Shown: positions 1 to 54,903, counted from the stretch's first letter. The stretch is 64,000 nt of DNA from Psammoneis japonica (GCA_008632985.1 QPGO01000116.1:1-64000); one strand, 5' to 3'. Numbers and translations: made by a program. Notes: generated by a model from the sequence alone, not told the origin.

Positions 1-3000
1 ATTCGTTGCCCCATTCCTCCAAGGCGATCATCCTTGAGCATTCTCGTCCACCTCCCCGCAACCCGCGAGCCAGCAACTGCCATGAGTCCATTGCGGCCAA
101 CCTTCACGACCAACGCCTTGGGAGTGACGGTGATGTCAACTTGTCCAACACGACTCCTGCTGACTCTGGTGACCCCGCTCCAAATGTGGTGCCACTTCGG
201 ACAATCCCATCCTGGCGCACCTCACCAAGCGCAAGCCACTGCCACCCGGTGATCTGCAACGTCTGTTGTCTCCTAACCAAGCCCCCAACGCTAGTCGACC
301 GGGGCCATCCGCCGCTCCCTCTACCCCGCCAGCTCCTGCCGATGACATGGAACTTAACGGCCACACTGCCGCCGCGTTGATGACCACAATGTCATTTGCT
401 CTGCCTCTGCTCATCGCTCCACACGCACTGGTGCTCAGTCGATCGTGGGGCCAACGGCGGCATTGCTGGGACGACGTTCGCGTCATTGCACGCACCTCTC
501 GCCAAGTCGACGTTCAGGGCATTGACGACCATCAATTGGTGGACATCCCCATTGTCACCGCTGGTGCCGTCATTGAGACCCAGCGTGGTCCCGTCATCGC
601 CATCCTCCATCAGNNNNNNNNNNNNNNNNNNNNNNNNNNNNNNNNNNNNNNNNNNNNNNCAAACAGGATGTCAACGATCGCTCTGTCAAGGTGCCCAACG
701 GCTTGCAATGTGTTGCCACTCCTGATTTCCATGTCATCCCCATTGACATCAAGGGCGGCCTGCCTTGTGTTGCCATGCGACCTTGCACTGACGCCGAATG
801 GGACACCCTGCCCCGTGTCATCCTCACCGGTGATGACACATGGGATCCTTCCGTCCTCGATCACTCTGCCACTGACGACGACCAGTGGTGCGACGTGATC
901 TCTGACCTGCAGGACGATCCCACTGCCAACCCATTTGATGAATGCGGCAACTGCCGTCATCGTGTCGTTGTCAACGAGACCATCATGTCCGCTTCCTTGT
1001 CTGCCGATCACGCGTCTGCCCTCGATGATCACCTCATTCCAAACAACGACGTGTTCTGTGAGTGTCATCCACATGCGATTGACCCCAAGGACGATGACGT
1101 TCCGCCCCCGGAGCGCACTGTGCAGCCCAAGGACCCCCCCTTCGAGTCTCTTCGGCCTTGCTTTGGCTTCCTGCCCACCGATGCGGTCCATCGTACTTTT
1201 GACTGCACCACGCAGTGCGTCTGCATGCCCGCCGGTGCACACCTTAGGAAGGCCTGCAAATCACCCAACCCCGCCCTCAATGTGCACCGCCGCAACGAGC
1301 CTGTCACCACTGACACCGTTTGTGCCAACACCCCGGCCGTCGACTCTGGTTGCACCAGCGCCCAACTGTTTGTTGGCACCGAGTCTGCCGTCACTGACGT
1401 CTGCGGCACCAAGACGGACAAAGAGTTTGTCAACACACTCGAGGATCAATCCATGAGCGTGGTGCCATCCAAACTCCATTGGCAACCGTGCTCAAGTTGA
1501 ATCAGCAACAAGGTGCTCGGGATTCTACGAGCCCTCTTCATCTCCAGCTGGCAAGTGAGCCTCACCAGCAACACCAAAACTTTGCCGAGCATTGACACCA
1601 GACCGTGAAGCGCATGGCAAACACTGTCATGGATTGTTTCGGTTCGCCTGCCCACACATGGCTGCTGGTGCTCATGTGCGTGTGCTTCACACTCAACACA
1701 CAGTGTCCCCACGTCTCCACTGGCGCACGCCCCTCGAGACTCTCACTGGCTCCACCCCGGACATCAGTCCATTGCCACGCTTTCACTGGTGGGAACCCAT
1801 GTGCTTCCACCTCAATGACTCCGATTGGCCATCCAAATCCCGTGAGTTGCGTGGACGCTTTGTTGGCATTGCTGAGCACGTCGGCCACCAGATGACCTTC
1901 AAGATTCTCTCTGACGAGACTCAGAAGATCCTCTGCCGGTCCAACGTACGATCCGCTGCCACCGATCCTGCCGTTCGAAACCTGCGTCTTGATCCTCCTG
2001 ATGGGGAGCCACCTGAACCCATCATCAAATCTCGCCATGACGACAACCCGTCGATTCACCGATGGGGAGATCAGGACACCAAGATGCCAGTTTTCGATCC
2101 GCAAGACATCATTGGACGCACCTTCCTCATGCAGCCACAAGAGGACGGACAACGCCACAGAGCTCGCATTGTCAAGGCCATCGAAGACCACGAATGGAAA
2201 GTGAACGGCAATCCTGAGCTCACTGAGTTCATCTGCTCTGTCAACAACGATGAATGCGAGGAAGTCCTTGCCTGCAACGACATCATGAATCACATTGAGC
2301 AAGAAGACGAAGACACTGCTGTTTGGAAATTTCGACGCATCGTGTCACACGAAGGACCTCTGAAGCCTCATGACCCAACCTGGAATGGCTCAAGCTACAA
2401 CATTGTGCTTGAATGGGAAAGTGGGGAGATCACGTCCGAGCCTCTTGCCATCATCGCCAAGGACGACCCCGTCACCTGCGCCATCTATGCACGAGAGAAC
2501 GGACTTCTCGACACTGATGGCTGGAAGCGGTTCCGCACCATCGCGAGGCGCCAGAAGAAGCCATTTTGCATGGCCAACCAAGCCAAGCTTCGCTCCTTCC
2601 GCACTGCACCTCGCCACAAGTGCGGATGCGAAGTTCCCCGGGACTGCAAACACGCCATGTCACCAGACGAACGCAACGGCAACCGCAAATGGGGAGACGC
2701 AACTAATCTCGAGATGGACCAACTCGGGGAGTGCGAAGTCTTCCATGACTGCGGGCCCTTCGAGTCTTCCACTCCTCCTGCGGGACACAAGAAGATCCGA
2801 GTGCACCCAGTGTGTGACGTGAAACACGACAGTCGCCACAAGGCACGACTCGCAGCCGATGGGCACCTCACGGACGTGCCCAATGACAGTGTCTGCTCCG
2901 GAGTGGTCTCCCTCCGTGGCCTTCGGCTGATGATTTTCCTGGCCAAACTCAACGAGTTGGAGACATGGGCCACCGACATTGGCAATGCCCACCTTGAAGC

Positions 3001-4396
3001 CACCACCAAGGAGAAGCTCTACATTGTAGCCGGACCCGAATTTGGCAATCTCGAAGGACACATCCTTGTCATCCACAAGGCCCTGCATGGACTGCACAGC
3101 TCCGGTCTCCGCTGGCACGAGCGCTTCGCCGACTGCCTGCGAGCTGAAGGCTTCTTCCCCTGCCGTGCCGAACCCCACATTTGGATGCGCAGGAACGGCG
3201 ACCACTGTGAATGCATTGCCGTTTATGTGGATGACCTCGCCATTGCTGTGAAGGACCCTCAATCTTTCGTTGATGCTCTCACGGAAAAGCACAAGTTCAA
3301 GCTCAAGGGTGCGGGACCCATTGAGTTCCATCTGGGTTGCGACTTTTCCCGGGATCCCGACGGCACCTTGTGCCTGTCTCCGTGCAAGTGCATCGAGCGC
3401 ATGGTCGACAGCCACACCCGACTGTTTGGGGAGAAACCTGCCACCAACGCCCTGTCACCGCTGGAGAAGGGTGACCACCCCGAGCTGGACACTTCCGAAC
3501 TGCTGGGGCCCGATGGCATTCACAAGTTCCAGTCTCTTGTTGGTTCACTCCAATGGGCAGTGTCCCTTGGTCGAGTTGACATTGCCACAGCCGTCATGTC
3601 ACTCTCTGGCTTCCGAGCTGCGCCCCATCAAGGCCACTTGGATCGTGCCAAACGCGTCTGTGGGTGCCTCTCCAAGATGCGACACGGCGCTCTCCGCATT
3701 CGCACGGAAGAGCCCGACTGTTCGGATCTCCCTGCTCCGGCCTGTGAATGGATGCATTCCGTGTGCGGCGAAGCAGAAGAGATGATCCCGAAGGACGCTC
3801 CACCGCCCCTTGGCAAGTTCGTCACTGCCACCCACTACGTCGATGCAAACTTGTGCCATTGCATGCTCACCGGACGCTCTGCCATGGGAATGCTCCACTT
3901 CCTCAACAAATTCCCGGCTGATTGGTCCTCTAAGAAGCAAGCCACCGTGGAGACTGCGACCTGCGGGTCTGAATTTGTTGCCGCAAGGACTTGTGTCAAG
4001 CAGATTGTCGACCTGCGCATCACCCTGTGCTGCCTTGGCGTCCCGATCCACAATGTCAGTTGCATGTTCGGTGACAACAAGTCGGTTGTAGACAGTGCCA
4101 CCATCCCGCACTCCAAGTTACACAAGCGACACACCGCACTGTCGTTCCACCGTGTGCGTGAGGCAATTGCCTCTGGTTGCCTTGAGTTCCACTTCATCGA
4201 AGGCTCCCGCAACCCTGCTGACATTCTCAGCAAGCATTGGGGTTGCTCCCAAATCTGGGACCTTCTCCGCCCCCTCATGTTCTGGAACTTCATTCCATCC
4301 GAAGTCGAATCTGTTTCTGTGGCTCCTCAAGCAAACTGGGGAGTGACAGGATTTGAACAGGATTTGGGTGCGCGCGAAGCATCGCGCGCTGTTTAG
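1..4396 (+). pseudogene. Frameshifted, hypermutated copia gag-pol (PR-IN-RT-RH)
   Basis: ORF pieces 266-898, 691-1500 and 1592-4396 lie in different frames. Many conserved Tyr are replaced by Cys/His. Confidence 0.9.
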
Positions 4397-4619
4397 TTTA
4401 CCGTGCACAGTTTTGTGTGCTTTAGTTCCGCGCGTTCACGCGCGATGTAGTTTGCTTTCGAGCCACAAGGCTCACAAGAACAATGACAGTAGCCCGATTG
4501 TGCCAACTCACACGTCTTTCGGCTCCTGCAACGGTCTCTGAGCGGAGACTCATCTGCCATTTAGACAGCAGTGAGGAGTTGTTGTTTGAATTCTTGCCAT
4601 TTGCCTTCAATTTCTGTCA
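4344..4619 (+). repeat. 3' LTR, family A (276 bp)
   Basis: TG...CA termini with 6-bp inverted repeat. Near-identical to 6352-6627 and to the reverse complements of 26470-26745 and 33115-33389. Confidence 0.95.
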
Positions 4620-4938
4620 GGCCCAGTGCAGGATTGCAGCCCTTGCACAGGCCCGCACTTCGAGACCAGTTGGGACACTCCACCCATGGCTTCCAAAGCT
4701 GCAGTCTTTGCACCCCGCAAACCACGTGCTGCCAACCTCCACGTGTTGACCACTGTCACCCTTCACAGTCTTCGTTTGGGAAGTGATGGAGATGACAACT
4801 TGCTTCTCACATCTCCTGATGGGGGAGCCTCCTTTTCCCGTCATTGAATCTGTTCACAACAGTTCAACCGGTTCATCAGATCAGGAGTTCAGGACATCCA
4901 AGCAGCTTCGTTGTCTTCGGATCCTCCAAGCATCGCAC

Positions 4939-5808
4939 CATGAGACCAGGCCTCCTGACCAGATGCTCCAAGTCTCGTACCTCGAGACCAGGACTCCTGA
5001 TTGGATGCCTCAAGTCTCGTGCCTCGAGACCAGGCCTCCTGATTGGATGCCTCAAGTCTCGTGCCTTGAGACCAGGCCTCCTGACTGGATGCTCCAAGTC
5101 TCGTACCTCGAGACCAGGCCTCCTGATTGGATGCTCCAAGTCTTGCACCTCGAGACCAGGCCTCCTGATTGGATGCCTCAAGTCTCGTGCCTCGAGACTG
5201 GGCCTCCTGGTTGGATCCCCCAAGTCTCGCACCTCGAGACTGGGCCTCCTGATTGGATGCCCCAAGTCTCGCACCTCGAGACCAGGTCTCCTGATTGGAT
5301 GTCCCAAGTCTCGCACCTCGAGACTGGGCCTCCTGATTGGATGCCTCAAGTCTCGTGCCTCGAGACTGGGCCTCCTGATTGGATGCCCCAAGTGTCGTAC
5401 ATCGAGACTGGGCCTCCTGATCGGATGCCCCAAGTCTCGTGCCTTGAGACCAGGCCTCCCAACTGGACTCTCCACGTCTCGTGCCTCAAGACCGGGCCTC
5501 CCAATTGGATCCTCCACGTCTCATACCTCAAGACTCGGCCTCCGGATTGGATCCCTCAAGTCTTGCGCCACGAGACTCGGCCTCCTGATTGGATCCCCCA
5601 AGTCTCGCACCTCAAGACTTGGCCTCCTGATTGGATCCCCGAAGACTCGTGTCACAAGACTGGCAAGTCCTTTTGGATCCCAGAAGTCTTGCAGCACGGG
5701 ACTGGTTGCCCCAATCAGACATCTGCAGCCTTGCACCACAAGATGTCTTGCTCCAATCCGATCCCCGAAGGCTTGCACCTTGAGACTCGTTTCTCCAATT
5801 GGATCAGT
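4939..5808 (+). repeat. 42-bp tandem repeat, about 20 units (consensus peptide LETRPPDWMPQVS[Y/C/H])
   Basis: CTCGAGAC at 4981 and 5023 gives a 42-bp period. Units degenerate towards the 3' end. Confidence 0.95.
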
Positions 5809-6351
5809 CTCTCAGGAGATGCAGCTGAGCTTGCAATCGGATTGGTGGAACACAAGACCACCGCTTGTGCCTTTGAACTCATGCTTGCTCTGTTCCCCGA
5901 GTCGTGCAAACGCCATGCCACCCTGCACGAGCACTGCTCTGTTTTTCTAGCAGCAGCCCAGTGTGGCAACCGTCCCAAGAACCAACAGACGGCCATCAGT
6001 CTTTATGACCTTTGCTCAGGAAGTGAAGGCGATGTCAACTTGTTTGCATTGTCCTGCAATGTTGCCCCGCCGTTCAACATTGTCAACCAGACCAAGCTTT
6101 GCTCCTTCCATTGCAAGTGCGGATGTGGAATCCCACAAGATCCCAAGTGTGCCTTGAGCTTTGAAAAGCACAACGGCATCTGCAATTGGGGAGACGCAGC
6201 TCATCTCAAGATGACCCACTTGGAGAATGCAACGTTGCTCTCGGATCTTGATCCTTTCTTGTCTCCTCATGTTTTGGTGCTTTGACTCCAAAGTTCTTTG
6301 TTCAATCCAAAGTCGAATCTGTTTCTGTGACTCCTCAAGCAAACTGGGGAG

Positions 6352-6627
6352 TGACAGGATTTGAACAGGATTGAGGTGCGCGCGAAATGTCGCGCACTGT
6401 TTAGTTTGCCACGCACAGTTTTGTGTGCTTTAGTTCCGCGCGTTCGCGCGCGATGCAGTTTGCTTTCGAGCCACAAGGCTCACAAGAACAATGACAGTAG
6501 CCCGATTGTGCCGACTCACACATCTTTCAGCTCCTGTGACGGTCTCTGAGCAGAGACTCATCTGCTGTTTAGACAGCAGCAAGGAGTTGTTGTTTGAATT
6601 CTTGCCATTTGCCTTCAATTTCTGTCA
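6352..6627 (+). repeat. LTR, family A (276 bp)
   Basis: Preceded by PPT AACTGGGGAG. Termini TGACAG...CTGTCA. Confidence 0.95.
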
Positions 6628-7149
6628 AGGTGGCTCACCATGAGATGCTGCAGAAGAGCAGCCTTTGCAAAAAAATCCCACCAGATGGACAAGGCAATGT
6701 TGGCACAGAAGAGAGCTGCATGAGCAGAGGCCAAGGAAGAACATCTGGCCACCGCCTGTGTTCATTCTTGGAGCAGCAGTCTGAAGGTGATGTGGGGTGT
6801 GATCAAAACCCCAACAAGTTTCCACCCAACAGGGGATGACAGATGCCCAAGGACCGTGGTGCAAGCATGTGGCATGCTGTCAAACTGGCGCAGCTGATCC
6901 AACATGCAGCACACCACATCAACAGGCAATGACTGTGCAGCATCGCCAATGTCAACAGAGCCTCTTCCAAAGGTGGGGGGGGCTGATCTGCAGACCTCAT
7001 CACATGCTGTCTTGCAACAACAACACTCCATTGCAAACTTTGTGGAAGTGGCAGAAAGTGGGGAACTTGATGATGCCAATGACCTTGGTTTCCAGTTTTG
7101 CACAGTGACCAAGGAAGACAATGAAAGGGGATCAGCTGACTTTCAGCTG

Positions 7150-8130
7150 ACTTTCAGCTGACACACCAGGCACAAGCAGTCAGATGATGGTGGCATGCAC
7201 CAAAGCTGGACATTGACCAGCAACCAGCCCATGTGCAACACATTTGTGAGTGCAGGCATGCTCCAGAACATCCAGCCAAGGCAAAAGAGAAATGTCAGGT
7301 CACTTGCAACAACCATGAATTCAACACATTCATCATCCACAAGAACAGCAGCAGCACCCAGAAATTCAAAGAGCCCACATCAGGATCACATTTCTGTGAC
7401 ACCACATCACCAGAGCATCAAGCACAAGCAGCCATCACACTGGTCAATGGTGGTCAACACGGTTGCAGGAAACAAGGCCACACGCTTGGCTTGCCATGAT
7501 GTCAAGCAGGCCCAACCAGCAAGAACAATCCAGAATGAAGACCATGACACCAAATTGCAGGGGCAATCACCCTCTGACCAACCAGGAACACCCAAGGCAG
7601 ACACTTCTTTGTCAGCCTTGAGCCAGGATGCCACATCAACTTCTGGAGCTGTGGAAGCCATGAATCCAGGCACTCCTGAGAGGTGTGGGGGATGACATTG
7701 CTGCTGCTTGTTTCAGCAACGCCAATTGTGCTGACAGTTGTCATGTGATGCAAAGGCCCTGAACTGGGATGATCATTTTTGTGCCCCTCGCCCCAATCTT
7801 TTTGCACTTGGCATGGCAGAACACTGTTGCATTTTCAACCTTTGAGTTGGAGGTTGTTGTGATGAAGACAATCAATGCATTTTGCTGCACACTGTGGATG
7901 GACCCGCTGGTCTCTTCTGAGACAATGAAGCCACATTTGAGAACCCCAAGTCAAACAGAACCTGCACTTGAAAAAAAGTGCAACACAGCTGCACATGTCA
8001 ATGAGCTCATGCAATGCAGGTGGCTGGAACATCACAGGTTGCATGGGGAGGAGGACACAGAAATTCAGCCAATGTTCTCACCAAGTTGGTGCCTGGGCTG
8101 ACTCATCAGTTGCATCTTAAACATGACTGG
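7150..8130 (+). mobile_element. Highly degenerate relic of another copia family
   Basis: Fragments AKAKEKCQVTC...FIIHK...FKEPTSGSHFCD and VNTVAGNK...DVKQAQPARTIQ resemble diatom copia pre-integrase regions. NSANVLTKLVPG (~8065) resembles the RNase H C-terminus. Recognised by eye only. Confidence 0.5.
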
Positions 8131-20736: not shown

Positions 20737-20879
<143 letters not shown>

Positions 20880-44555: not shown

Positions 44556-45013
44556 ATTGAACGACCAGTATTGTTATGTTGTACGGAGTATAATTTTATG
44601 CAGGCGTCACCTTTCACCTTTTAGCCAGCATCAGCCCTGCCGTTCGATCTGGATCGTCAATCGTCATGGTCGGTCGCGAGTGGCGATCTTTGATCTTCTG
44701 TGGTTCGGGCGCGACGGAAACCACAGGAAGATTTCAAGCAGACAAACAAGCAGCGGAACTTCTCATTCGAGTTCGCTTCGAGCTATTTTTCTACGTAGAA
44801 CTTCGTACTTATTTCCCGTAGATCACTCGCCAACCCGCCCTCGCTCTTCTTGAACCTTGAACAGCGGCACAAAGACACCGATTCAATCAGAACCTTGTTG
44901 TTGCACCGCCTGCCCCCGCATAGCAGTCGTTAGGGCCCTACTGTCACATAAGCTTTGCTAAGACGAGTGTTCTGACGAAATTCGTGAAAAGGCTCTTTGT
45001 TTGTCCCTTCAAA

Positions 45014-47078
<2,065 letters not shown>

Positions 47079-47661
47079 ACAACGCGAAATCCGGAGTTTG
47101 TTGAAGAAGTGCTAGGGCCCTACTCAAATGTTGATATGTGTGTGTTGGTGTAGTTTTTCCTACGCGTCTGCTTTGTAGTTCTGCACCAGAGAGATTGGGT
47201 AGGGCTTGTTACACAATAGATTTAGGTTTCCTAGCCCTACATCTTAGTGAATACTTTTAGTTGGGGAAGGGGCGGGCAGGCATTTTACAGCGATATTCCG
47301 TTCGACTCGCTCGTTTTCATGACCAGAGGTCGTCGAGCTTCGTCGCCTTTCGACGGCCAGTTCGCCTAGCTGTTTGCCAGCAGCATTGTTGACAGGTGGC
47401 CATAGTTTAAAGACTGATGCAACTATTGAACTGTAACACACAACGTAGATCATCAAAGCTTCGTCAACAACGTCCAACGTCTTCGCTTGCCGAGGTAATG
47501 ACAGTTTTGGAAGTTTATTGGTTAGGGAAACTACCTCTACTCTAGAGCTAGAGTAGTACGCGGATTGACTTCGGCGCGCGACACAGGCAATGGTTTTTGT
47601 CTGGACCTCAGACCTCGCAACTCACGGTCCGCCCGCCACCCACGAGCGAACCGCGAGGTCT

Positions 47662-47895
47662 AGTCACGACTCAACGTCATTCTGGTCGCATCTCACGACT
47701 ACAACCCAGACTCAGATTTTCTCTTCGAAATAATTAGCTCATCACAAAATCGATTCAAACAGAAGCAACGACATTCGTCATAATTTCTAGACAACGACTT
47801 TCAACAAGCGTCTGTTTACCTCTGTCGCCATTCATATTGCTACCAACCTCCGAGGTCTTGTCCATCCTACTCAGCTACAGGACTGCATCTCGACT
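47662..47895 (+). repeat. 5' LTR, family B (AGTC...GACT)
   Basis: 227/234 identical to the 3' LTR by manual alignment. Confidence 0.95.
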
Positions 47896-48057
47896 GGTTG
47901 TAGAGACCAATTTGCGCGTTGACGAGAGCTCCTGACCGAGTCATCGTCACGGACGCTTTCGGTTTTTGATTTTGAAGCAAACCCGGGAAATAGCTGAGTC
48001 TCTCTCGCTTCTCTCGTCTTCACTCTAACAAGAACCTCCCACACTGCACTCTCTGTC

Positions 48058-51000
48058 ATGGCCACCATCGATCCAGATGTTCTGGCAAAGGCGTTTGCCG
48101 ATGCAATGGCCGCTGACGCCACGGCGACTGCTCCTCCGGCTCCAACCAAGCCGTTACGTGGTGGAATTCACCCAACCCACGGGGTTTACATTGGTGGTTC
48201 CAAACTCAACAACAACTGCGAACAATCCAACGATGGAACCTGCCGACTCGCCTCTCAGCGCCATCATCCCAAGGCTCTTGACTCGACAGAACGATCTCTC
48301 CGCGATCAACAAGCTTCCGCAATGACTTCCAAGTTCAACGGTCGACTTGAGATTTCGGACGGTCCCATCAACGAGCTTGACAAGGACCATTTCGTCAAGA
48401 CTGTTCGAGATCTGGCAGAAGCCCACGGTCAGCAGACGTTCCACCATGTCAAGGACAGCGACGACAAGGTTCAACATGTCTTCGACCATCTTCACGAGTT
48501 TACTGTGACCGATCTCGTGAACGAGCACACGGTTAGGAAAGCAGCTGCCGATGATGCCAAGTGCGACGAGATCGAGCTCGACGATGTCGGGCTCTCTCAA
48601 CTTCTCGTTCACTCAAGAATCACCAATGCCTTTCGCGAGAAAATCGAGACCAAGTTCAACCATCTTTCGGACTGCCAAGACTACCCTGGATCTGTTCTGT
48701 TCATGATGGCTCTCGACACTTGCAATGCCAGCGCTCTAACGGATGTTGAGACGGCCAAGAAGCAGCTAGAAGACCTCAGTTTGGTTGACTGTCCCGGCGA
48801 GGATTGCACGGACTTTGCTGCCGAAGCTCTTCGCATCGTGAAAATCATGCAGACCGACTGCGCGCTTCCGGCGAACACAAGCTCCAAGCTGCTCCACAAG
48901 ATCTCCTCTACGTCCTCTGAATGCTTCGATTGCCGAGTCTACAACAAGCTCGACGACGTCAAGGCTGTGGAACGCAAGTGCCGCCTCAAGAATCCTGCTG
49001 ACATCGTGTCCGACAGTGATTGCAGAACGCTCGGACCGGTCGGTGTCATTGCGTGGATTCAAGAGCAACACAACGAACTCGTGAAGGACGGGGAATGGCC
49101 TGCATTAGTCGCCAAGCTACCCGAGAGTAATCTTTCGACTACGGATGACCCTGGGAAGACGAAGCACTGTCATGGTTGCGGTCTCGAGGGGCACACCAAG
49201 AAGACGTGTCCGAAGTGCAACGCCAAACCGCCGCGCGACGATCCTCCTCCCAATCCGCCGCCTGCAGACGACCCTTCCAAGAAGAAGAGGCGACCCATCG
49301 CTGTCTGGCGCACTAAATTTGACGGAGAAACGAAGAAGGACAAGAATGGCAAGGAATGGAAGTGGTGTGCCACGTGCAAGGCGAAGGGTGCCGACAAACC
49401 TGGAATCCACCAGAAGCACTCTACCGCGGAACATGCCGACGACCGCAGGCAACCTCCCAAGGAGACCCCAGCCGGGAATTTGTCTTCCGTTGCTGATCCG
49501 GATAGTGGCGTGCCCATGGGTCCGCCCGCTCAGACCACCAAGGCACCAGAGGGAGACGAATCCGACCCCAACGAGTTGGTTTTCACGGGAATGTGGTGCG
49601 CGGCTACGGATCCCGTTGCCGACCCGGATTTCTGTTCCGCCCCTGTTGCCACTGCAATTGTTGTTACTCCGGCTTCTTCGGCCGAGAGGGAGAGCGACAC
49701 AGTCGTTAGCACTGAGGTGGTTTGCATCGAAACGAGCCCACCTGTACTCACCTCAGTCGTGGATCCAGTCGTGTCTCCCATCGTGGTTGAGACTGTCACT
49801 CCCGAAGACGCCGATGACTTCTACGAACACTCCGACGCTTTCTCCACCTTTGAAAACGAACCACCGGCTATTGAGTTGTTTCCGGCCTCGAAGCTGTGCT
49901 CCATCAAGCATCCAGATGAGTTCTTTGATGCTCCCGCACATTTGACGGATATGCTGTCAGACGACACCAAGTTAGATCTCATCCTTGAACACGACGTACA
50001 CTTTGAAGACGCACACTACGACTTGCCTCCGTGTGTTGCGTATCGTGGCTTCGATTTCTACGATCCAGAGGTCCTGGATGCGGATGGTTGTCACGAGGAC
50101 GTCGAAGACGAGCCCACTTCGCGTCGCTCACTCTTGGGTCGAGTCAAGCTGTTCATGTTCTGGCTCGCCGCCATGTTTTGGGAAACGGTGCTACATCTTT
50201 GCTTTGCTCCGATCCCATGTGTTCCTCGAGCTCTACGCCGCCAGCGCAAACTCCCAACTTTGCACGGGTTTCCAGCCTCCTGGATGGTCCTGTCCGTTGC
50301 AGTGATGGTGTGGTCAGCAGTTTACGCCGGTCAACAGCCCGAGTGTCCCTTCTCGCACGTACCAAGTCGTTTTTCGACCGCCAGCTCTCAAGTCTACCAC
50401 ATTGTGGAAGAGCTAGATGACCGGATAGTGTCAGATGCGGGGTCACTGTTCGAATGTCACAGGATCAAAGGCACGCAAGTGCTCACCGAGTTTGTCGCGC
50501 GCCATCCGTCACACGCACTGAGCACTCGTCTCAAGGCCTGCTGGGAGAGCCTGGAAGTAGCTGAACGGTCTGATGCGACAGACGAATCAGCCTTCTTTGA
50601 CACCTGTGAGGAACTGGAACCTCTCGACGACCAGAAGCATTTCTTTGACGCTCTTGAGGACTTCAGCCCGGATTTCTTCCGGTTTGACGAGCTCTGTCTG
50701 CCGCATCACATCGTGGACACCACCCATTTTCAAGACCCTGTGGAGCTGTTGGAGGAAGCAAGTGTTAGACCAGTCGTCTATGACACCTCCACCATCCAAC
50801 TGCTCACCGGACAATCACAAGCTGACCTCCTTGCATCCGATCCGCAGGCACTCATCGGTCTGTCGGACGAGGCTCTCACGGTCGTCATGGACACTGGTGC
50901 CACGTTAGCCATTGCCCCCGACAAAGATGATTTTACGGGGCCTGTGACTGTTCCCAAGAAACCCTTACAGATCAATGGGATTGCCAACGGTCTTACCATC

Positions 51001-54000
51001 CAGGGTGCCGGTCCGGTTGCGTGGGTGTTCACAACGCCGAGTGGGGCTGCCATCCAACTGAACACCATGGCATGCCACGTCCCTGGAGCCCGTCAGCGCC
51101 TGCTGTCGCCTCAACGCCTCTTCAACGAAGAGAAGGGGATACGTGGGAAGTGTGAGGGCGATGAAACCACTTTCCGTTTACATGTTGACGGGACAGGCAA
51201 GTTGGTCATGCCATGTCATCCATCAAGCCACTTGCCCATTGCGTCGATGACCAAGGGCGCATCTGCCGCTCCTCAAGTGAACCTTCAGGTCCTTAACGAG
51301 GAGAATCAAAACCTCACGGCAGGCCAAAAGCTTCTTCTCGAAATGCACGCCCGTTTTGGCCATTTGAACTTTGGTCGCGTCCAAGCACTTCTCCGCGCAG
51401 TTCCGCTCCTTTCGAACCGTTTCAAGTCCGCAGCGAAGTGTGACCACCCAAGATGCGAGGTGTGCGAACATGCTAAAGGTCACAGACGCTCTCTTGGATC
51501 TACTCACAAGTCGACAGTCCCTGAACGCGACGGGGCCCTTCGAGCTGACCATCTTCGACCGGGTCAGGCTGTCAGCGTTGATCATTTTGAGTCGCGCCTT
51601 TTAGGCCGCACCTTCGACTCTTGTGGCAAAGCCACGTCCAAGCAATTCAAGGGCGGTTGTGTCTTTGTCGACCACGCCTCTGGCCATGTCCAGGTCGAGC
51701 ACCAACTAGGTTTCTCCGCTGTTGAGACGATGCGCGCGAAGCAAGCGTTTGAGAAACATGCTTTGGACCACGGGGTCATCGTCCAAGAATTTCTTACCGA
51801 CAGTGGCGCTTTCAAGGCCAACGCTTTTGTACAACACACACGAGAACATGAACAACGTCTCCGTTTTTGTGGAACCAACGCCCATCATCAGAACGGCGTC
51901 GCAGAGCGGGGCATCCGCAGCATCTCCAACATGGCGAGAGCGATGTTGCTTCATGCATCAATCCACTGGAAGGGGGGAATTGACAGCTCCCTATGGCCCA
52001 TGGCAGTTTCTCATGCCACGCACATCTATAATGTCACCCCAACTTCCAAAGGACATTGCCCAGCGGACATTTTCACCGGTTCGACAGTGCCAAGACATCG
52101 GTTGCGCGACATTCACACATGGGGATGTCCAGCGTACGCACTTGACCCGACCCTCGCTTCCGGGAAGAAGCTCCCGCGTTGGGAGCCTCGCACTCGTCGC
52201 GCTTTGTTCGTGGGACTCAGTGCCATCCATTCCAGTGAGGTTCCTTTGGTCCTCAATCTTCAAACTGGAAGTGTTGCACCTCAGCATCATGTGGTCTTTG
52301 ACGATCTCTTCACTGCCGCACCATCAATCGAGAGGGAGACGGATCCACCTGATCACTGGGAACACTTGTGCCTCAACCAATCGATGTGCATCCCTCTGGA
52401 GAAGGATCAGGCAGTTCATTTGCACGATGAGTGGCTTGCCCCTCCAGAGCGTCAACGTAAAGAAAGAGAACCAGCCAGAGCAACACGTGTTCGCGGGCAT
52501 TTTGAGCCTGCTCCATCGATTGCTGTGCTGGATTCACCCACTTCTCGCGACGACGTTGCCGATCGAGTCGCACCTGTGACTTGGCAGCCAACGCCACCAG
52601 TCCCACCTGCGACTCAAACTCCTGCAGACTCTACGGACTCTACACCAATTCAGCCACCTGAACCTCAAGACAGTGACGGACTTCCGCCACCCGAAGCGCC
52701 GACGGAACCAACAGCTCCTCCCCCAGTCGAGACACCTCCTGTGACGAATCCAGAGGGAGTGCCAGGGCTGCGACGGTCTTCACGGTCAACCAAGGGACAG
52801 TTCAACTCTGCCAAGTTTGTAGATGAGGTCCACTTCAGCTCCGTCAAGGAAATGCCGCTGCCGATCAGACACGAGGCTCAACTGGCATGTCTGGCGACTC
52901 TCGAGACGGATTTGGACAGTGGTGCCATCAATGTCGGCGATCCACGAGCCTACGCAGCTAGCAAGAAAACCAAGGACCCTGATGTGCCTTCGTTGCACAA
53001 TGCTCTGAAAGGTCCGGACTCCGACGAATGGATTGAGGCAATGAAAATTGAAGTCAACGCACTCATGCATCGTCGAGCCTGGAAAGCAGTCGAGCGTCAG
53101 CCGCATGTGAATGCACTTCCAGGCACATGGGCACTAAAGCTCAAGAGACTCCCAGATGGAACCCCTCTCAAGCACAAGGCCCGACACTGCATCCGCGGTG
53201 ATTTGCAGAAAGAAGGAGTCGACTGCTTCGAAACCTGCGCGCCGGTTGTGCAATGGTCCAGCATCCGACTCATGCTCACTACGGTGTTAAAGGAGGGATG
53301 GACCACACGACAAGTGGACTGTGCCACAGCCTTTTGCCAAGCTGATGTCGCCGAGGAAGTTCACACAACACCGCCGAAGGGATTTGCGCCAAGGTCGGGA
53401 CTCAACATGGTTCTCAAACTTTTGAAAGGACTGCACGGCCTAAAACAGTCTCCCAAGGGCTTCTACGAGAAGTTACGAGCTGGTTTAACCGAGCGCGGAT
53501 GGGCACCTTCAGCCATAGATCCCTGTTTGTATTTCAAAGAGGGCATGATGCGTGTGGTGCACGTCGACGACACCGTTTTTGCTGGAGCTTCAGCTGAAGC
53601 TCTAGAAGCCGAAATTCGCAAGTTAGGAGTCTCCGACGACGAACATCGCCACGCATTTGAACTTAGAGACGAAGGAGAAGTCGGTGACTTTCTCGGTGTC
53701 AAGATCGAAAAGCTCTCCGAGGGTCGATTTCTGCTCACTCAACCCGGTCTAATTGACAAGGTCCTGCGTGCCGCACAGATGCAGGATTGCAATGGAGCAT
53801 CTGCTCCAGCTCTACCTGCGGCTGTTGGTGCCGACACGGACGGCCTGCCTTTTGATGAACCCTGCGATTGTCGCTCAGTTGTTGGAATGTTGATGCACTT
53901 GGCAGCGAACAGCCGGCCAGACATTGCATGTGCCACACATCAAGCAGCTCGATTCTCGTTTGCGCCCCGAGCGTCCCACGCTGCTGCAGTGAAGCGGACA

Positions 54001-54648
54001 CTCCGATGCCTCAAAGCAACTGCTGCTGAAGGTCTCATTCTCAAGCCTGCGCAAGATCATCGAGTTGATTGTTGCGTCGATTCTGACTTCGCGGGGTCAT
54101 TTGGTGTGGAAGATGGTCAAGACCCAGTTTCTGTCAAGTCCAGGACTGGACACCTTGTCCACTGCGCCGGCTGCCCGCTCATCTGGGTGTCCAAGCTGCA
54201 GACTCTTGTGGCATTGTCGACTGTGGAAGCGGAACATGTCGCACTTTCTCAAGCTGTGCGCGATCTCATCCCTGTTCGTGAAGTTCTCAAGGAGCTCAAC
54301 CACCACGCATTCGGAAAGTCTGACCGCCAAAACCCAATCACGACTCACTCCAAGGCTTTTGAGCTCGCAACCCAAGGCACCGATGACTCGCCTGTAGAGC
54401 AGAATGTCCTGCCTACGTCCGTTGTGTACGAAGATAACTCCGCGTGCCTCAAGTTCGCACGCATGCCCAAGTTGTCTCCGCGAACCAAACACATCGGCAT
54501 CCCGCACCACTGGCCCAGGACTAAAGTCGAACAATTGGAGATCGACATCCAACCTGTCAGCACTCTAGAGCAACTAGCCGATCAGTTCACGAAGGGACTA
54601 CGGACCGATGCATTCCGCACGGCTAGAAAGGCTCTTATGGGCTGGTAA
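48058..54648 (+). CDS. Copia gag-pol polyprotein, open frame but probably inactivated by missense changes
   Basis: Zinc knuckle CHGCGLEGHTKKTC, protease MDTGA, integrase HARFGH...CEVC / VDH / TDSG / NGVAER, RT with HVDD in place of YVDD, and RNase H CVDSDFA / ADQFTK. Confidence 0.93.
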   Translation: MATIDPDVLAKAFADAMAADATATAPPAPTKPLRGGIHPTHGVYIGGSKLNNNCEQSNDGTCRLASQRHHPKALDSTERSLRDQQASAMTSKFNGRLEISDGPINELDKDHFVKTVRDLAEAHGQQTFHHVKDSDDKVQHVFDHLHEFTVTDLVNEHTVRKAAADDAKCDEIELDDVGLSQLLVHSRITNAFREKIETKFNHLSDCQDYPGSVLFMMALDTCNASALTDVETAKKQLEDLSLVDCPGEDCTDFAAEALRIVKIMQTDCALPANTSSKLLHKISSTSSECFDCRVYNKLDDVKAVERKCRLKNPADIVSDSDCRTLGPVGVIAWIQEQHNELVKDGEWPALVAKLPESNLSTTDDPGKTKHCHGCGLEGHTKKTCPKCNAKPPRDDPPPNPPPADDPSKKKRRPIAVWRTKFDGETKKDKNGKEWKWCATCKAKGADKPGIHQKHSTAEHADDRRQPPKETPAGNLSSVADPDSGVPMGPPAQTTKAPEGDESDPNELVFTGMWCAATDPVADPDFCSAPVATAIVVTPASSAERESDTVVSTEVVCIETSPPVLTSVVDPVVSPIVVETVTPEDADDFYEHSDAFSTFENEPPAIELFPASKLCSIKHPDEFFDAPAHLTDMLSDDTKLDLILEHDVHFEDAHYDLPPCVAYRGFDFYDPEVLDADGCHEDVEDEPTSRRSLLGRVKLFMFWLAAMFWETVLHLCFAPIPCVPRALRRQRKLPTLHGFPASWMVLSVAVMVWSAVYAGQQPECPFSHVPSRFSTASSQVYHIVEELDDRIVSDAGSLFECHRIKGTQVLTEFVARHPSHALSTRLKACWESLEVAERSDATDESAFFDTCEELEPLDDQKHFFDALEDFSPDFFRFDELCLPHHIVDTTHFQDPVELLEEASVRPVVYDTSTIQLLTGQSQADLLASDPQALIGLSDEALTVVMDTGATLAIAPDKDDFTGPVTVPKKPLQINGIANGLTIQGAGPVAWVFTTPSGAAIQLNTMACHVPGARQRLLSPQRLFNEEKGIRGKCEGDETTFRLHVDGTGKLVMPCHPSSHLPIASMTKGASAAPQVNLQVLNEENQNLTAGQKLLLEMHARFGHLNFGRVQALLRAVPLLSNRFKSAAKCDHPRCEVCEHAKGHRRSLGSTHKSTVPERDGALRADHLRPGQAVSVDHFESRLLGRTFDSCGKATSKQFKGGCVFVDHASGHVQVEHQLGFSAVETMRAKQAFEKHALDHGVIVQEFLTDSGAFKANAFVQHTREHEQRLRFCGTNAHHQNGVAERGIRSISNMARAMLLHASIHWKGGIDSSLWPMAVSHATHIYNVTPTSKGHCPADIFTGSTVPRHRLRDIHTWGCPAYALDPTLASGKKLPRWEPRTRRALFVGLSAIHSSEVPLVLNLQTGSVAPQHHVVFDDLFTAAPSIERETDPPDHWEHLCLNQSMCIPLEKDQAVHLHDEWLAPPERQRKEREPARATRVRGHFEPAPSIAVLDSPTSRDDVADRVAPVTWQPTPPVPPATQTPADSTDSTPIQPPEPQDSDGLPPPEAPTEPTAPPPVETPPVTNPEGVPGLRRSSRSTKGQFNSAKFVDEVHFSSVKEMPLPIRHEAQLACLATLETDLDSGAINVGDPRAYAASKKTKDPDVPSLHNALKGPDSDEWIEAMKIEVNALMHRRAWKAVERQPHVNALPGTWALKLKRLPDGTPLKHKARHCIRGDLQKEGVDCFETCAPVVQWSSIRLMLTTVLKEGWTTRQVDCATAFCQADVAEEVHTTPPKGFAPRSGLNMVLKLLKGLHGLKQSPKGFYEKLRAGLTERGWAPSAIDPCLYFKEGMMRVVHVDDTVFAGASAEALEAEIRKLGVSDDEHRHAFELRDEGEVGDFLGVKIEKLSEGRFLLTQPGLIDKVLRAAQMQDCNGASAPALPAAVGADTDGLPFDEPCDCRSVVGMLMHLAANSRPDIACATHQAARFSFAPRASHAAAVKRTLRCLKATAAEGLILKPAQDHRVDCCVDSDFAGSFGVEDGQDPVSVKSRTGHLVHCAGCPLIWVSKLQTLVALSTVEAEHVALSQAVRDLIPVREVLKELNHHAFGKSDRQNPITTHSKAFELATQGTDDSPVEQNVLPTSVVYEDNSACLKFARMPKLSPRTKHIGIPHHWPRTKVEQLEIDIQPVSTLEQLADQFTKGLRTDAFRTARKALMGW

Positions 54649-54669
54649 GCTCTCTCGGTTGAGAGGGAG

Positions 54670-54903
54670 AGTCACGACTCAACGTCATTCTGGTCGCATC
54701 TCACGACTGCAACCCAGACTCAGATTTTCTCTTCGAAATAATTAGCTCATCACAAAATCGATTCAAACAGAAGCAACGACATTCGTCATAATTTCTAGAC
54801 AACGACTTTCAACAAGCGTCTGTTTACCTCTGTCGCTATTCATATTGCTACCAACCTCCGAGGTCTTATCCATCCTACTCAGCTGTGGGACTGTATCTCG
54901 ACT
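54670..54903 (+). repeat. 3' LTR, family B (AGTC...GACT)
   Basis: Follows the PPT and is followed by the TSD GGTCT. Confidence 0.95.

What the first reader, a model, noticed from the sequence alone, without database searches (positions are those of the whole stretch)
1..54903. Repeat-targeted TpA to TpG/CpA hypermutation: a candidate RIP-like genome defence running A:T to G:C
Seen: TpA is nearly absent from all transposon-derived sequence (1-10.6 kb, 13.7-35.9 kb, and much reduced at 48-54.6 kb) but normal in every host gene. Conserved Tyr codons in unrelated elements (two copia families, a DNA-transposon helicase and transposase) read Cys (TAY to TGY) or His (TAY to CAY), so A to G occurs on both strands. 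Known: fungal RIP and 5mC decay give C to T and create TpA/TpG. ADAR editing of retroelement RNA or APOBEC editing of its cDNA would be strand-biased and could not easily explain a DNA transposon. Inference: a mutator acts on integrated repeat DNA, for example a TadA/Tad2-like adenine deaminase, decay of a modified adenine, or Pol eta-like error-prone synthesis (WA to WG). I do not know of such a system described for diatoms, but cannot search the literature here.
Basis: partly seen in the sequence, partly recalled or inferred. Interest (0 to 1): 0.95.

Follow-up and report, generated by a model that had tools for sequence, protein, structure and literature searches.

The report
TpA-erasing hypermutation of diatom transposons
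In this stretch of a diatom genome, every transposon copy has had most or nearly all of its T-A steps rewritten to T-G or C-A, much of it demonstrably after it settled in the chromosome, while neighbouring host genes are untouched; this kind of targeted DNA scrambling has been reported only once, in an unrelated alga, and its enzyme is unknown.

Summary
TpA observed/expected is 0.08-0.17 in the transposon blocks and 0.48-0.62 in the host blocks, with sharp edges.

The direction is TA to TG/CA. At 27 columns where at least 70% of 120 copia homologues carry Tyr, copy A keeps 4 and reads Cys 14 and His 5. Other conserved residues are kept in 416 of 477 columns. Of 19 polarised A>G/T>C changes, 18 lie at TpA. 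A TIR-bounded DNA element shows the same change, with 16 of 26 Tyr reading His or Cys.

The hits are independent per copy and post-integration. They appear as TG-versus-CA differences between two copies, between the two LTRs of one element, and among units of a tandem array. Both strands are hit equally (46:38). The favoured context is T-A-T, then T-A-C, then T-A-G or T-A-A. Eighty related elements from metagenomes are not depleted.

The same signature was measured directly in Bigelowiella natans (bioRxiv 10.64898/2026.01.13.699255). This is therefore a new member of a barely known kind, and I found no report of it in diatoms. The enzyme and the targeting signal are untested, because no genome is held for this window.

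The parts
1..4620 (+). Copia copy A, cut by the window start. Its Pol ORF is 1559-4396 and its 3' LTR is about 4344-4620. TpA o/e is about 0.1.
   Evidence: Pfam RVT_2 at E = 9e-24. It is 94.5% identical to copy B. Tyr makes up 0.5% of the ORF. Tyr is kept in 4 of 27 conserved Tyr columns, with Cys 14 and His 5.
4621..6627 (+). TpA-poor unit between two LTR copies. It holds a 42-bp tandem array of about 17 units at 4942-5650, and a further LTR with about 50 bp of internal sequence at 6301-6627.
   Evidence: TRF. One column pair of the unit reads TA in 4 units, TG in 7, CA in 5 and CG in 1 of 17. A CpG column pair reads CG in 14, TG in 2 and CA in 1. LTR matches are and the LTR alignment.
6628..10600 (.). 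Unclassified block depleted in both TpA and CpG.
   Evidence: TpA o/e is 0.00-0.16 and CpG o/e is 0.07-0.62 per kb. No Pfam family reached its curated cut-off.
13788..20320 (.). TIR-bounded DNA element. The 132-bp inverted ends are at 13788-13919 and 20189-20320. It holds an SF2 helicase remnant at 14140-15848 (+) and a DUF6589-like gene at 16022-18529 (-).
   Evidence: The inverted repeat is 93% identical. The helicase ORF has 1645 homologues, the best at E = 2.4e-48, and 5 of the 6 homologues scanned match both DEAD and Helicase_C. P0241 aligns by tblastn at E = 3.6e-134. Of its 26 aligned Tyr, the window reads His 9, Cys 7 and Tyr 3.
20321..26469 (.). Block depleted in both TpA and CpG, with the remnant of another copia 3' end at 24991-25191 and a diverged LTR reaching to 25465.
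   Evidence: TpA o/e is 0.00-0.14 and CpG o/e is 0.09-0.67. tblastn hits to the copia Pol C-terminus. The segment 25036-25465 is 72% identical to 4175-4619.
26470..33389 (-). Copia copy B, with its 3' LTR at 26470-26746 and its 5' LTR at 33114-33389. An N gap lies at 28889-29458.
   Evidence: The LTR pair differs by 14 events: 4 TA/TG-or-CA singles, 4 TG/CA doubles, 3 CpG-type and 3 other. Tyr is kept in 6 of 25 readable columns, with Cys 13 and His 3.
33390..35900 (.). Unclassified block depleted in both TpA and CpG, ending sharply at the promoter side of the HDAC gene.
   Evidence: Contigs of run X1 cover 33365-35211 and 35205-36089 with 1 other letter each.
47662..54906 (+). Copia element 3, of a second family. 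Its LTRs are at 47662-47898 and 54670-54906. Its 2216-aa frame at 47998-54648 is open but Tyr-poor. Depletion is partial.
   Evidence: Pfam RVT_2 at E = 3.7e-33. The LTRs are 97% identical, and all 7 substitutions between them are of TA/TG/CA type. Tyr is 16 of 2216 residues, His 102 and Cys 61. TpA o/e is 0.26 inside and 0.54/0.59 in the LTRs.
36000..47600 (.). Host genes that serve as the internal control: HDAC, TAFII28-like, class-III aminotransferase, ribose-5-phosphate isomerase and an SDR.
   Evidence: Pfam. TpA o/e is 0.62 and CpG o/e is 0.99. X1 contigs cover 42353-45588 and 45613-47611 with 0 other letters.

Best explanation
A host process mutates transposon DNA after it has integrated. 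It converts the T:A/A:T step 5'-TA-3' into TG or CA on either strand. It stays confined to within about 100 bp of the element ends and spares host genes.

Shown here: the direction, the TpA specificity, the equal use of both strands, and the independence of hits between copies. Also shown: action on elements that never pass through RNA, a 3'-neighbour hierarchy of T-A-T, then T-A-C, then T-A-G or T-A-A, and a rate per TpA about nine times that of CpG decay in the same copies.

Inferred: the agent is an enzyme guided to silenced TE chromatin. I think it is most likely (about 40%) a DNA-acting adenine deaminase of the TadA/ADAT2 kind, which makes inosine at the A of T-A-Y; inosine is then copied as G.

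Because TA to TG/CA never creates a new in-frame stop, the copies are disabled by Tyr to Cys/His and similar changes while their reading frames stay open. A second, slower and ordinary process, CpG to TpG/CpA, runs in the same DNA.
For: Polarity. At 27 Tyr columns of 120 homologues, copy A reads Tyr 4, Cys 14 and His 5. Other conserved residues are kept in 416 of 477 columns (Fisher p = 8e-16). In 56 columns where copy A departs from a residue that is at least 80% conserved, the single-step transitions are TA>TG 12, TA>CA 6, CG>CA 7, CG>TG 3 and other T>C 1. None is an A>G outside TpA.

Control. In 80 related copia loci, TpA o/e has median 0.73 and minimum 0.33. Replacement of Tyr by Cys or His has median 3.3% and maximum 32%, against 67% in copy A and 50% in copy B.

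DNA level and post-integration. The DUF6589-like gene of the TIR element reads His 9, Cys 7 and Tyr 3 at 26 Tyr positions of its homologue. Copies A and B differ at 27 TG/CA double sites, where 1.9 would be expected from CpG, and at 30 TA-versus-TG/CA sites. At 5 Tyr codons one copy reads Cys and the other His, and at 4 only one copy is hit. The LTR pair of element B has 4 TG/CA doubles and 4 singles, and all 7 LTR differences of element 3 are TA-type. One tandem-array column pair reads TA 4, TG 7 and CA 5.

Strand symmetry. Post-split events are 46 TG to 38 CA, with no strand runs.

Context. A 3' T gives the lowest survival in all 4 TE sets with both baselines.

Specificity. ApA, TpT and ApT are unchanged and the edges are sharp.

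Precedent. TpA to TpG/CpA arose de novo in mutation-accumulation lines of B. natans at integrated viral DNA.
Against: No enzyme, chromatin or small-RNA data could be examined, because no genome is held.

The read support comes from contigs of one sample, which may be the sample the window was assembled from, so it is not independent.

The family has subfamily structure. At several places nearly all family contigs carry one state where the window differs. An example is 47877, where all 39 contigs read G against the window's A. Some changes are therefore inherited from already mutated source copies, and the direction of the single LTR differences in element 3 is not proven.

The LTRs of element 3 keep a normal TpA level (o/e 0.54 and 0.59) while its interior is at 0.26. 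A simple 'every base of the repeat' model does not explain this.

The context model did not predict which strand was hit at 30 sites better than chance (logL -20.2 against -20.8).

The T-A-Y preference does not match the anticodons that ADAT2/3 edits, none of which has U at position 35. This point is recalled, not tested.
Confidence: 0.75

Rival explanations
1. The footprint is the same but the chemistry differs. The T of TpA, in the context R-T-A, is enzymatically modified in TE chromatin, for example oxidised to 5-hydroxymethyl- or 5-formyl-uracil by a TET/JBP-type enzyme. It then mispairs with G and gives T>C.
For: Sequence alone cannot tell A>G at the A of T-A-Y from T>C at the T of R-T-A on the other strand. 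Every result here is symmetric with respect to this choice. That dinoflagellate 5hmU is enriched at TpA is recalled, not tested.
Against: Nothing here speaks against it. No such enzyme or base is documented for diatoms in the papers I read. The B. natans authors favour adenine deamination.
Confidence: 0.2
2. It is a passive by-product rather than a dedicated system. Silenced TE chromatin lacks a repair pathway or uses an error-prone polymerase whose errors happen to fall at TpA.
For: The effect is confined to TE blocks that also show CpG decay, and so are probably methylated heterochromatin.
Against: The specificity is extreme. 18 of 19 polarised A>G/T>C changes are at TpA, and ApA, ApT and TpT are untouched. 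The rate is about 76 times background per base. The edges are sharp to about 100 bp. A Pol eta-like WA mutator should also deplete ApA, and it does not.
Confidence: 0.12
3. The editing happens during retrotransposition. An adenosine deaminase edits the genomic RNA (sense A>G) and the minus-strand cDNA (sense T>C), so each new copy arrives already mutated.
For: The copies carry independent patterns. Tyr codons of the copia copies favour Cys over His, 27 to 8. Interiors are more depleted than the LTRs in element 3.
Against: A TIR-bounded DNA element with helicase and DUF6589-like genes is depleted just as strongly. So are a tandem array and unclassified blocks. The two LTRs of element B differ by 4 TG/CA doubles and 4 TA singles. 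Events known to be post-split are strand-symmetric, 46 to 38. This mechanism could contribute, but it cannot be the whole story.
Confidence: 0.07
4. TpA poverty is intrinsic to the families. The elements evolved without TpA through selection or codon usage, and Cys/His are their normal residues.
For: Many TG/CA states are shared by most family contigs. Ten of the 15 doubly mutated Tyr codons have the same state in copies A and B.
Against: Tyr columns that are 70-100% conserved in 120 homologues are lost. None of 80 related loci is below o/e 0.3. Copies A and B differ by Cys against His at 5 Tyr codons, and one copy still has Tyr at 4. Four unrelated kinds of sequence share the depletion.
Confidence: 0.03
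5. It is an assembly or base-calling artefact, for example modified bases in TEs being read as G or C.
For: The platform of the assembly and of the runs is not on record.
Against: Contigs built independently by Logan from run X1 match the TpA-free block 33365-36089 with 1 other letter each, and match host DNA with 0. The pattern gives coherent TG/CA/TA polymorphism among copies and array units.
Confidence: 0.02
6. GC-biased gene conversion among repeated copies drives A:T to G:C.
For: TE blocks are 4-6 points richer in G+C than host blocks.
Against: The gain is confined to TpA, and other A/T-containing dinucleotides are unchanged. Conversion would homogenise copies. It would not produce TG-versus-CA differences.
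Confidence: 0.02

Closest known systems
TpA-targeted hypermutation of integrated NCLDV and virophage DNA in Bigelowiella natans (Mettrop et al., bioRxiv 10.64898/2026.01.13.699255). I read the abstract, Results and Discussion, and ran term searches.
   Same: In both, the changes are A>G/T>C confined to TpA, giving TpG or CpA according to strand. In both, the process is confined to foreign or mobile DNA. Both leave a long-term footprint of TpA loss with CpA+TpG gain. In B. natans the TpA-poor CDS are enriched for reverse transcriptase and DDE domains.
   Different: That work measured de novo events in mutation-accumulation lines, at about 1000 times the baseline rate. Here only the accumulated footprint is seen. 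The hosts differ (a diatom against a chlorarachniophyte). The targets here are LTR retrotransposons, a TIR element, a tandem array and old relics. Depletion here is near saturation (o/e 0.08-0.17 against 0.45 for their NCLDV region). Their main hypermutable region is single-copy. Their main text holds none of the words 'context', 'flanking' or 'trinucleotide', so the T-A-Y hierarchy seen here has no counterpart there.
Repeat-induced point mutation (RIP) of ascomycete fungi
   Same: Both cause dinucleotide-specific transition hypermutation of integrated repeated DNA on both strands, leaving host genes alone and killing transposons.
   Different: RIP runs C>T, mostly CpA to TpA, and so enriches TpA (as described in the abstracts listed, for example PMC2621366). 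Here TpA is destroyed and G+C rises. RIP creates stop codons and this process cannot. Dependence on duplication, a RID-type enzyme and premeiotic timing are all untested here. Passages of PMC9998398 report that many diatoms encode DNMT4 relatives of RID of unknown function.
ADAR hyperediting and APOBEC editing of retroelements. The neighbour preferences are recalled; the general comparison is in the B. natans Discussion.
   Same: Both involve deaminase-type clustered transitions that inactivate mobile elements. ADAR also favours a 5' U.
   Different: Those systems act on RNA or cDNA, so they are strand-biased and limited to retroelements. Here both strands are hit equally and a DNA element is affected. 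The 3' neighbour preference here, T then C then G or A, is the reverse of ADAR's recalled preference for 3' G.
ADAT2/TadA-family adenine deaminases with reported DNA activity (BjADAT2 and TbADAT2, as cited in the preprint)
   Same: Their natural target adenine (A34) follows the invariant U33, which is a UA step. DNA deamination has been reported for some members, according to the preprint's text.
   Different: No enzyme from this diatom could be examined. The preference for T or C after the adenine is only partly like TadA's U-A-C (recalled).
5-methylcytosine decay at CpG in methylated diatom transposons (passages of PMC9998398)
   Same: It also yields TpG/CpA. It is present here as a second process: CpG o/e is 0.07-0.25 in the older blocks, and copies A and B differ at 67 CG/TG-or-CA sites.
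   Different: It cannot remove TpA. It runs about nine times more slowly per site in the same copies.

Membership tests
B. natans-type TpA hypermutation of foreign DNA | The substitutions are A>G/T>C transitions at TpA, giving TpG or CpA. | tested here: met
   18 of 19 polarised A>G/T>C changes are at TpA. Tyr columns read Cys or His in 19 of 27. TG/CA doubles number 27 against 1.9 expected from CpG.
B. natans-type TpA hypermutation of foreign DNA | Both strands are hit. | tested here: met
   Post-split events are 46 TG to 38 CA (binomial p = 0.45), with no strand runs.
B. natans-type TpA hypermutation of foreign DNA | The process is confined to integrated foreign or mobile DNA, and host genes are spared. 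| tested here: met
   TE windows have median o/e 0.10 (maximum 0.29) and host windows 0.56 (minimum 0.34). The edges are within about 100 bp. This covers one window only.
B. natans-type TpA hypermutation of foreign DNA | A de novo rate orders of magnitude above the genomic baseline, seen in mutation-accumulation lines. | not testable with these tools
   Only an indirect estimate is possible: about 76 times background per base since the A/B split.
Fungal RIP | C>T transitions, mostly CpA to TpA, that raise TpA and lower G+C. | tested here: not met
   The direction is the opposite: TpA is lost and G+C is 4-6 points higher in the TE blocks.
Fungal RIP | Triggered by sequence duplication (homology sensing). 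| tested here: inconclusive
   All targets are or were repeats. However, the block 33365-36089 is covered by contigs at the same depth as host DNA. The 237-bp LTRs of element 3 are little affected. A 68%-identical host paralogue pair is unaffected.
Fungal RIP | A RID/DNMT4-type enzyme and premeiotic timing. | not testable with these tools
   No genome is held.
ADAR-type RNA hyperediting of retroelements | A>G on the transcribed sense strand only, in elements that replicate through RNA. | tested here: not met
   T>C on the sense strand is as common. A TIR DNA element, a tandem array and LTR pairs are affected.
Pol eta-type WA mutagenesis | A>G at both TpA and ApA. | tested here: not met
   ApA o/e is 1.07-1.23 in TE blocks and 1.09-1.25 in host blocks. 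No A>G outside TpA appears in the polarised set.
5mC deamination at CpG | CpG to TpG/CpA with CpG depletion. | tested here: met
   It is present as a separate, slower process. It does not account for the TpA loss.
TadA/ADAT2-type adenine deaminase acting on DNA | A deaminase-fold enzyme is present, nuclear and active on DNA at T-A. | not testable with these tools
   Only the footprint (T before the target A, pyrimidine after it) is compatible. No proteome is available.

The most novel reading that the evidence does not exclude
A guided DNA-editing enzyme that recognises the 5'-TA-3' step (adenine deamination at T-A-Y, or thymine modification at R-T-A) is an old genome-defence module of the SAR supergroup. 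It is used by both diatoms and chlorarachniophytes. It is directed to transposons and integrated viruses by chromatin or small RNAs. It disables them by missense scrambling and G+C enrichment instead of by stop codons.
Probability: 0.35. Interest if true: 0.9.

Novelty: new member of a known kind. Interest (0 to 1): 0.75.

Why it matters
If the reading holds, diatoms, which are major primary producers with transposon-rich genomes, would be a second eukaryotic lineage with a targeted A:T to G:C mutator of mobile DNA. That would suggest the B. natans phenomenon is widespread, not a curiosity.

The window adds constraints that an enzyme hunt can use:
- dsDNA-level symmetry between strands;
- no processive single-strand runs;
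- a T-A-Y (or R-T-A) motif;
- confinement to within about 100 bp of element ends;
- a rate about nine times that of CpG decay in the same copies.

A natural TpA-specific A-to-G DNA editor would also interest base-editing work.

There is a practical consequence for annotation. TpA-free relics keep long open frames in several phases: 86 ORFs of at least 150 aa in this window, and a 2216-aa frame that is open but has lost most of its Tyr. Gene callers and TE-age estimates based on divergence will be misled in such genomes.

Tried and rejected
- Whole genome. None is held for this window, so there could be no genome-wide profile, no family consensus and no search for deaminases or Y-family polymerases.
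- Sequencing runs. Four rows from one sample and one study were returned, all kept as contigs, and no RNA holder was listed. X2 contigs skip GT..AG stretches in host genes and give no cover on the TE parts of the laid stretch. I use neither point as evidence on expression.
- Summed contig depth over the copia parts is 1000-3500 times that of the host parts. The tool warns that this is not a copy number. I conclude only that the family is highly repeated.
- Pfam gave nothing above its cut-offs for the blocks 6.6-10.6, 20.3-26.5 and 33.4-35.9 kb.
- The Atlas search on ORF 15920-17608(-) gave only scattered low scores. tblastn later showed that this ORF continues the DUF6589-like gene.
- P0241 itself scores 25.9 bits against DUF6589, just under Pfam's cut-off of 27. 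I therefore write 'DUF6589-like'. It was the only homologue found (1 protein at E <= 1e-3).
- Element 3 against the 120 homologues: the alignment is poor (other residues are kept in only 0-53% of their conserved columns). Its result (Tyr kept in 1 of 20 columns, Cys 4, His 3) is weak support only.
- Helicase: only one conserved Tyr column was available, and it reads Cys.
- The context model's prediction of which strand was hit at 30 sites was no better than a coin.
- The runs test for strand-coordinated clusters was negative.
- No target-site duplications were recognisable around element B, element 3 or the TIR element. That B's two LTRs belong to one insertion is therefore likely but not proven.
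- L036 is the only metagenome relative with reduced TpA (o/e 0.33) and Tyr to Cys/His at 32%. It is only 68% identical in DNA to the window copies and shows no context hierarchy, so it remains a lead only.
- Earlier notes of this scan: nothing was found for this genome, for this sequence, or for the four words 'TpA depletion transposon hypermutation' together. The eight notes shown under 'TpA' concern phages and bacteria.
- Supplements of the bioRxiv preprint, with its mutation tables, are closed. They may hold flanking-base data that I could not see.

Full report
OBSERVATION. The window splits cleanly into two kinds of DNA. In the blocks 1-10600, 13788-28888 and 29459-35900, TpA observed/expected is 0.08, 0.09 and 0.17. 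In the three host blocks it is 0.48, 0.62 and 0.57. In 1-kb windows, the 31 TE windows have median 0.10 and maximum 0.29, and the 24 host windows have median 0.56 and minimum 0.34 (Mann-Whitney p = 2.9e-10; per-kb table). TpG and CpA rise to 1.5-1.7. ApA, TpT and ApT are the same in both kinds of DNA. The edges are sharp: TpA per 100 bp drops from 3-6 to 0-1 at 13788 and returns at about 35900. G+C is 4-6 points higher in the TE blocks. The sub-blocks at 7-9, 21-26 and 34-36 kb are also CpG-depleted, at 0.07-0.25.

WHAT THE BLOCKS ARE. The host genes are an HDAC, a TAFII28-like protein, a class-III aminotransferase, ribose-5-phosphate isomerase, an SDR and a Ufd2-like protein. The named relatives of the aminotransferase are all diatoms, at no more than 68% identity. 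The organism is therefore a diatom or a close relative that is not itself in the protein collection.

The depleted DNA has five components:
- Two copies of one copia family: A at 1-4620 (+) and B at 26470-33389 (-). They are 94.5% identical, with LTRs of about 277 bp running TGACAG...CTGTCA.
- An LTR-flanked unit with a 42-bp tandem array of 17 units at 4942-5650.
- A 6.5-kb element at 13788-20320, bounded by 132-bp inverted repeats. It encodes an SF2 helicase remnant with 1645 homologues, the best at E = 2.4e-48; 5 of the 6 homologues scanned match both DEAD and Helicase_C. On the other strand it encodes a DUF6589-like protein (Atlas score 0.95; one homologue, P0241; tblastn E = 3.6e-134 over residues 3-784).
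- Unclassified relics at 6.6-10.6, 20.3-26.5 and 33.4-35.9 kb.
- A second copia family, element 3, at 47662-54906. Its LTRs are 97% identical and its depletion is partial.

DIRECTION OF CHANGE. The 120 homologues of the copy A Pol (53-66% identity) average Tyr 4.1%, Cys 1.2% and His 3.5%. The copy A ORF has Tyr 0.5%, Cys 4.1% and His 5.7%. At the 27 alignment columns where at least 70% of the homologues have Tyr, copy A reads Tyr 4, Cys 14, His 5, Phe 2, Trp 1 and Ser 1. Copy B, readable at 25 of those columns, reads Tyr 6, Cys 13, His 3, Phe 2 and Trp 1. All other conserved residues are kept in 416 of 477 columns in copy A (Fisher p = 8e-16).

I took the 56 columns where copy A departs from a residue that is at least 80% conserved and asked which single base change explains each. 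The result was TA>TG 12, TA>CA 6 (including Leu CTA to Pro CCA twice and Val GTA to Ala GCA once), CG>CA 7, CG>TG 3 and one other T>C. No A>G fell outside TpA. One column was ambiguous, 15 needed transversions and 11 needed more than one step.

As a control, I fetched 80 related copia loci from metagenomes. Their TpA o/e has median 0.73 and minimum 0.33, and none of the 80 is below 0.3. The Tyr residues of reference P0134 are replaced by Cys or His in a median of 3.3% of positions (maximum 32%). The figures for copy A and copy B are 67% and 50%. The family is not intrinsically TpA-poor.

THE PROCESS ACTS ON INTEGRATED DNA, COPY BY COPY. Four lines of evidence support this.

(a) The TIR-bounded element does not replicate through RNA. 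It is depleted as strongly as the copia copies. At the 26 Tyr positions of P0241, its DUF6589-like gene reads His 9, Cys 7, Tyr 3, Phe 3, Trp 2 and other 2, while Phe is kept at 19 of 34 and Trp at 7 of 7 (p = 3e-5). The single conserved Tyr column of the helicase reads Cys.

(b) Copies A and B were compared over 3796 aligned dinucleotide columns. The classes are TA/TA 16, TA/TG 19, TA/CA 11, TG/CA 27, CG/TG 36, CG/CA 31 and CG/CG 227. The next commonest double difference occurs 4 times. Only about 1.9 TG/CA doubles are expected from independent CpG decay, so most come from an ancestral TA hit on opposite strands in the two copies. The Tyr codons confirm this. At 5 codons one copy has Cys and the other His. 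At 4 codons only one copy is hit. At 10 codons both copies have the same state, and at 3 both keep Tyr. With the observed 77% Cys share among hits, 9.7 of 15 identical outcomes are expected from fully independent hits and 10 are seen. The common ancestor therefore had at least 12 of these 22 Tyr, and possibly all of them.

(c) LTR pairs are identical at integration. In element B they differ by 14 events: 4 TA-versus-TG/CA singles, 4 TG/CA doubles, 3 CpG-type and 3 other. In element 3 all 7 substitutions are of TA/TG/CA type. The two TIRs differ by 2 TA-type singles, 1 double, 3 CpG-type and 2 other. In the five-copy LTR alignment, one column holds CA, CA, TG and TA.

(d) In the tandem array, one dinucleotide of the unit (context G-TA-C) reads TA in 4 units, TG in 7, CA in 5 and CG in 1 of 17. 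A CpG two bases upstream reads CG in 14, TG in 2 and CA in 1.

PROPERTIES.
- Strand use. Events that are certainly post-split are 30 TG to 22 CA in copy A and 16 to 16 in copy B. Together that is 46 to 38 (p = 0.45). The order of TG and CA along each copy is random, with 28 runs against 26.4 expected in A and 18 against 17 in B. There is no sign of processive single-strand action.
- Context. The surviving TpA are not a random sample. A model in which each strand's adenine survives independently according to its 3' neighbour fits four separate TE sets against two baselines (R2 0.71-0.90). Survival is always lowest with 3' T (0.07-0.23). Survival with 3' C (0.07-0.54) is second-lowest in seven of the eight fits, and in the eighth it ties with 3' T. 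It is higher with G or A. In the oldest blocks almost only CTAA, CTAG and TTAA remain. The motif is thus T-A-Y, or equivalently R-T-A if the thymine is the target.
- Rate. The fraction hit is 0.67 at Tyr codons and 0.11 at Arg CGN codons. This gives a rate ratio of about 9, and about 76 times the background rate per base (rough, and inferred).
- Reading frames. TA to TG/CA cannot create a new in-frame stop, so reading frames persist. There are 86 stop-to-stop ORFs of at least 150 aa. Element 3 has a 2216-aa open frame in which Tyr is only 16 residues, with His 102 and Cys 61.

READS. One DNA run (X1, kept as contigs; possibly the sample the window came from, so not independent) holds 78% of the sampled words. 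Its contigs cover the host stretches 42353-45588 and 45613-47611 with 0 other letters. They cover the TpA- and CpG-free block at 33365-35211 and 35205-36089 with 1 other letter each, at the same depth as host DNA. Of the 10,174 X1 contigs laid at 80% likeness or more, the depth lies overwhelmingly on the copia parts. The changes against the window are mostly transitions in both directions (A>G 201, G>A 187, T>C 224, C>T 164). An assembly artefact is unlikely.

CAVEATS AND UNEXPLAINED POINTS.
- At several places nearly all family contigs carry one state where the window differs. Examples are 47877, where all 39 contigs read G; 29836 and 31878, where the window has CG and the family has TG; and 31173, where 81% read C. 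The families therefore have subfamily structure. Some TA>TG/CA states were inherited from source copies that were already partly mutated, and the direction of single TA/TG differences in the element 3 LTRs is not proven.
- The LTRs of element 3 keep normal TpA (o/e 0.54 and 0.59) while its interior is at 0.26. Targeting may depend on length, transcription or chromatin position.
- Tyr codons of the copia copies favour Cys over His, 27 to 8. Part of this is the T-A-Y context. A sense-strand bias in that family cannot be excluded.
- No target-site duplications were recognised.

COMPARISON WITH WHAT IS KNOWN. A 2026 preprint on Bigelowiella natans reports mutation-accumulation lines in which 231 of 302 nuclear single-nucleotide mutations fall in an integrated NCLDV region and a virophage region. 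230 of those 231 are A>G or T>C, and all of these are at TpA. The rate is about 1000 times the baseline. A set of TpA-poor CDS is enriched for reverse-transcriptase and DDE domains. The authors propose an ADAT2-like DNA adenine deaminase. The text holds no mention of diatoms or stramenopiles and none of the words 'context', 'flanking' or 'trinucleotide'.

Seven literature searches of the held library returned no report of TpA-directed hypermutation in diatoms. Passages of PMC9998398 say that diatom TEs are CG-methylated and that many diatoms carry DNMT4 relatives of the fungal RIP enzyme, of unknown function.

Fungal RIP is the nearest functional analogue, but it runs in the opposite chemical direction. 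ADAR/APOBEC-type editing fails on strand symmetry and on the DNA element. A Pol eta-like WA mutator fails because ApA is untouched.

MECHANISM. Shown: a TpA-specific, strand-symmetric, element-confined, post-integration mutational process. Inferred: it is enzymatic and is guided to TE chromatin. My split among causes is as follows:
- adenine deamination to inosine at T-A-Y by a TadA/ADAT2-type enzyme, about 40%;
- a thymine-directed modification at R-T-A, about 20%;
- a passive heterochromatin repair or polymerase bias, about 12%;
- editing during retrotransposition as the sole cause, about 7%;
- intrinsic composition, artefact, or biased gene conversion, 2-3% each.

Whether repetition itself is the trigger (RIP-like) or the chromatin state is the trigger cannot be told from one window. 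In B. natans the main target is single-copy.

VERDICT. The enzyme, the trigger and the defence role remain open. This is a new member of a kind described once, in a different SAR lineage, and it adds new constraints on the motif, the symmetry and the confinement.

Noticed in passing
window 4942-5650: A 42-bp tandem array of about 17 units (86% matches) lies between two LTR copies of the copia family, inside a 511-aa open frame with no Pfam family. It may be the interior of a non-autonomous LTR element.
   Followed up: partly
window 41605-42363 and 42839-43588: An inverted pair of 68%-identical segments covers the ribose-5-phosphate isomerase gene and a second copy beside it. Both have normal TpA.
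   Followed up: no
window 43195-43280, 40031-40578: Contigs of run X2 skip an 84-base stretch with GT..AG ends inside the SDR gene, and also skip stretches inside the aminotransferase region. X2 is recorded as 'DNA?' but looks RNA-derived, and the single-ORF gene models used here may contain introns.
   Followed up: no
window 29459-33460 and 47468-49458: Summed contig depth in run X1 is about 65,000-209,000 over copia copy B and about 4,100-6,500 over element 3, against about 55-60 over host genes. The tool warns that this is not a copy number, but both families must be highly repeated.
   Followed up: partly
L036:1-2561: One of the 80 metagenome relatives has TpA o/e 0.33, and 10 of its 31 aligned Tyr positions read His (8) or Cys (2). 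It is only 68% identical in DNA to the window copies. It may be a second, milder case in another organism.
   Followed up: partly
window 11210-13441 (-): A 743-aa open frame with host-like composition (TpA o/e about 0.5) and no Pfam family sits untouched between two heavily mutated TE blocks.
   Followed up: no
window 1-35900, all frames: Because TAA and TAG vanish, and with them TTA and CTA on the other strand, long overlapping ORFs appear in several frames of the TpA-free DNA. ORF length is not evidence of an intact gene here.
   Followed up: yes
window 16022-18529 (-): The DUF6589-like gene has only one detectable homologue in the 5.8-billion-protein collection. Its nearest Atlas clusters are mostly from Basidiomycota. 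This is an odd distribution for a diatom transposon gene.
   Followed up: no
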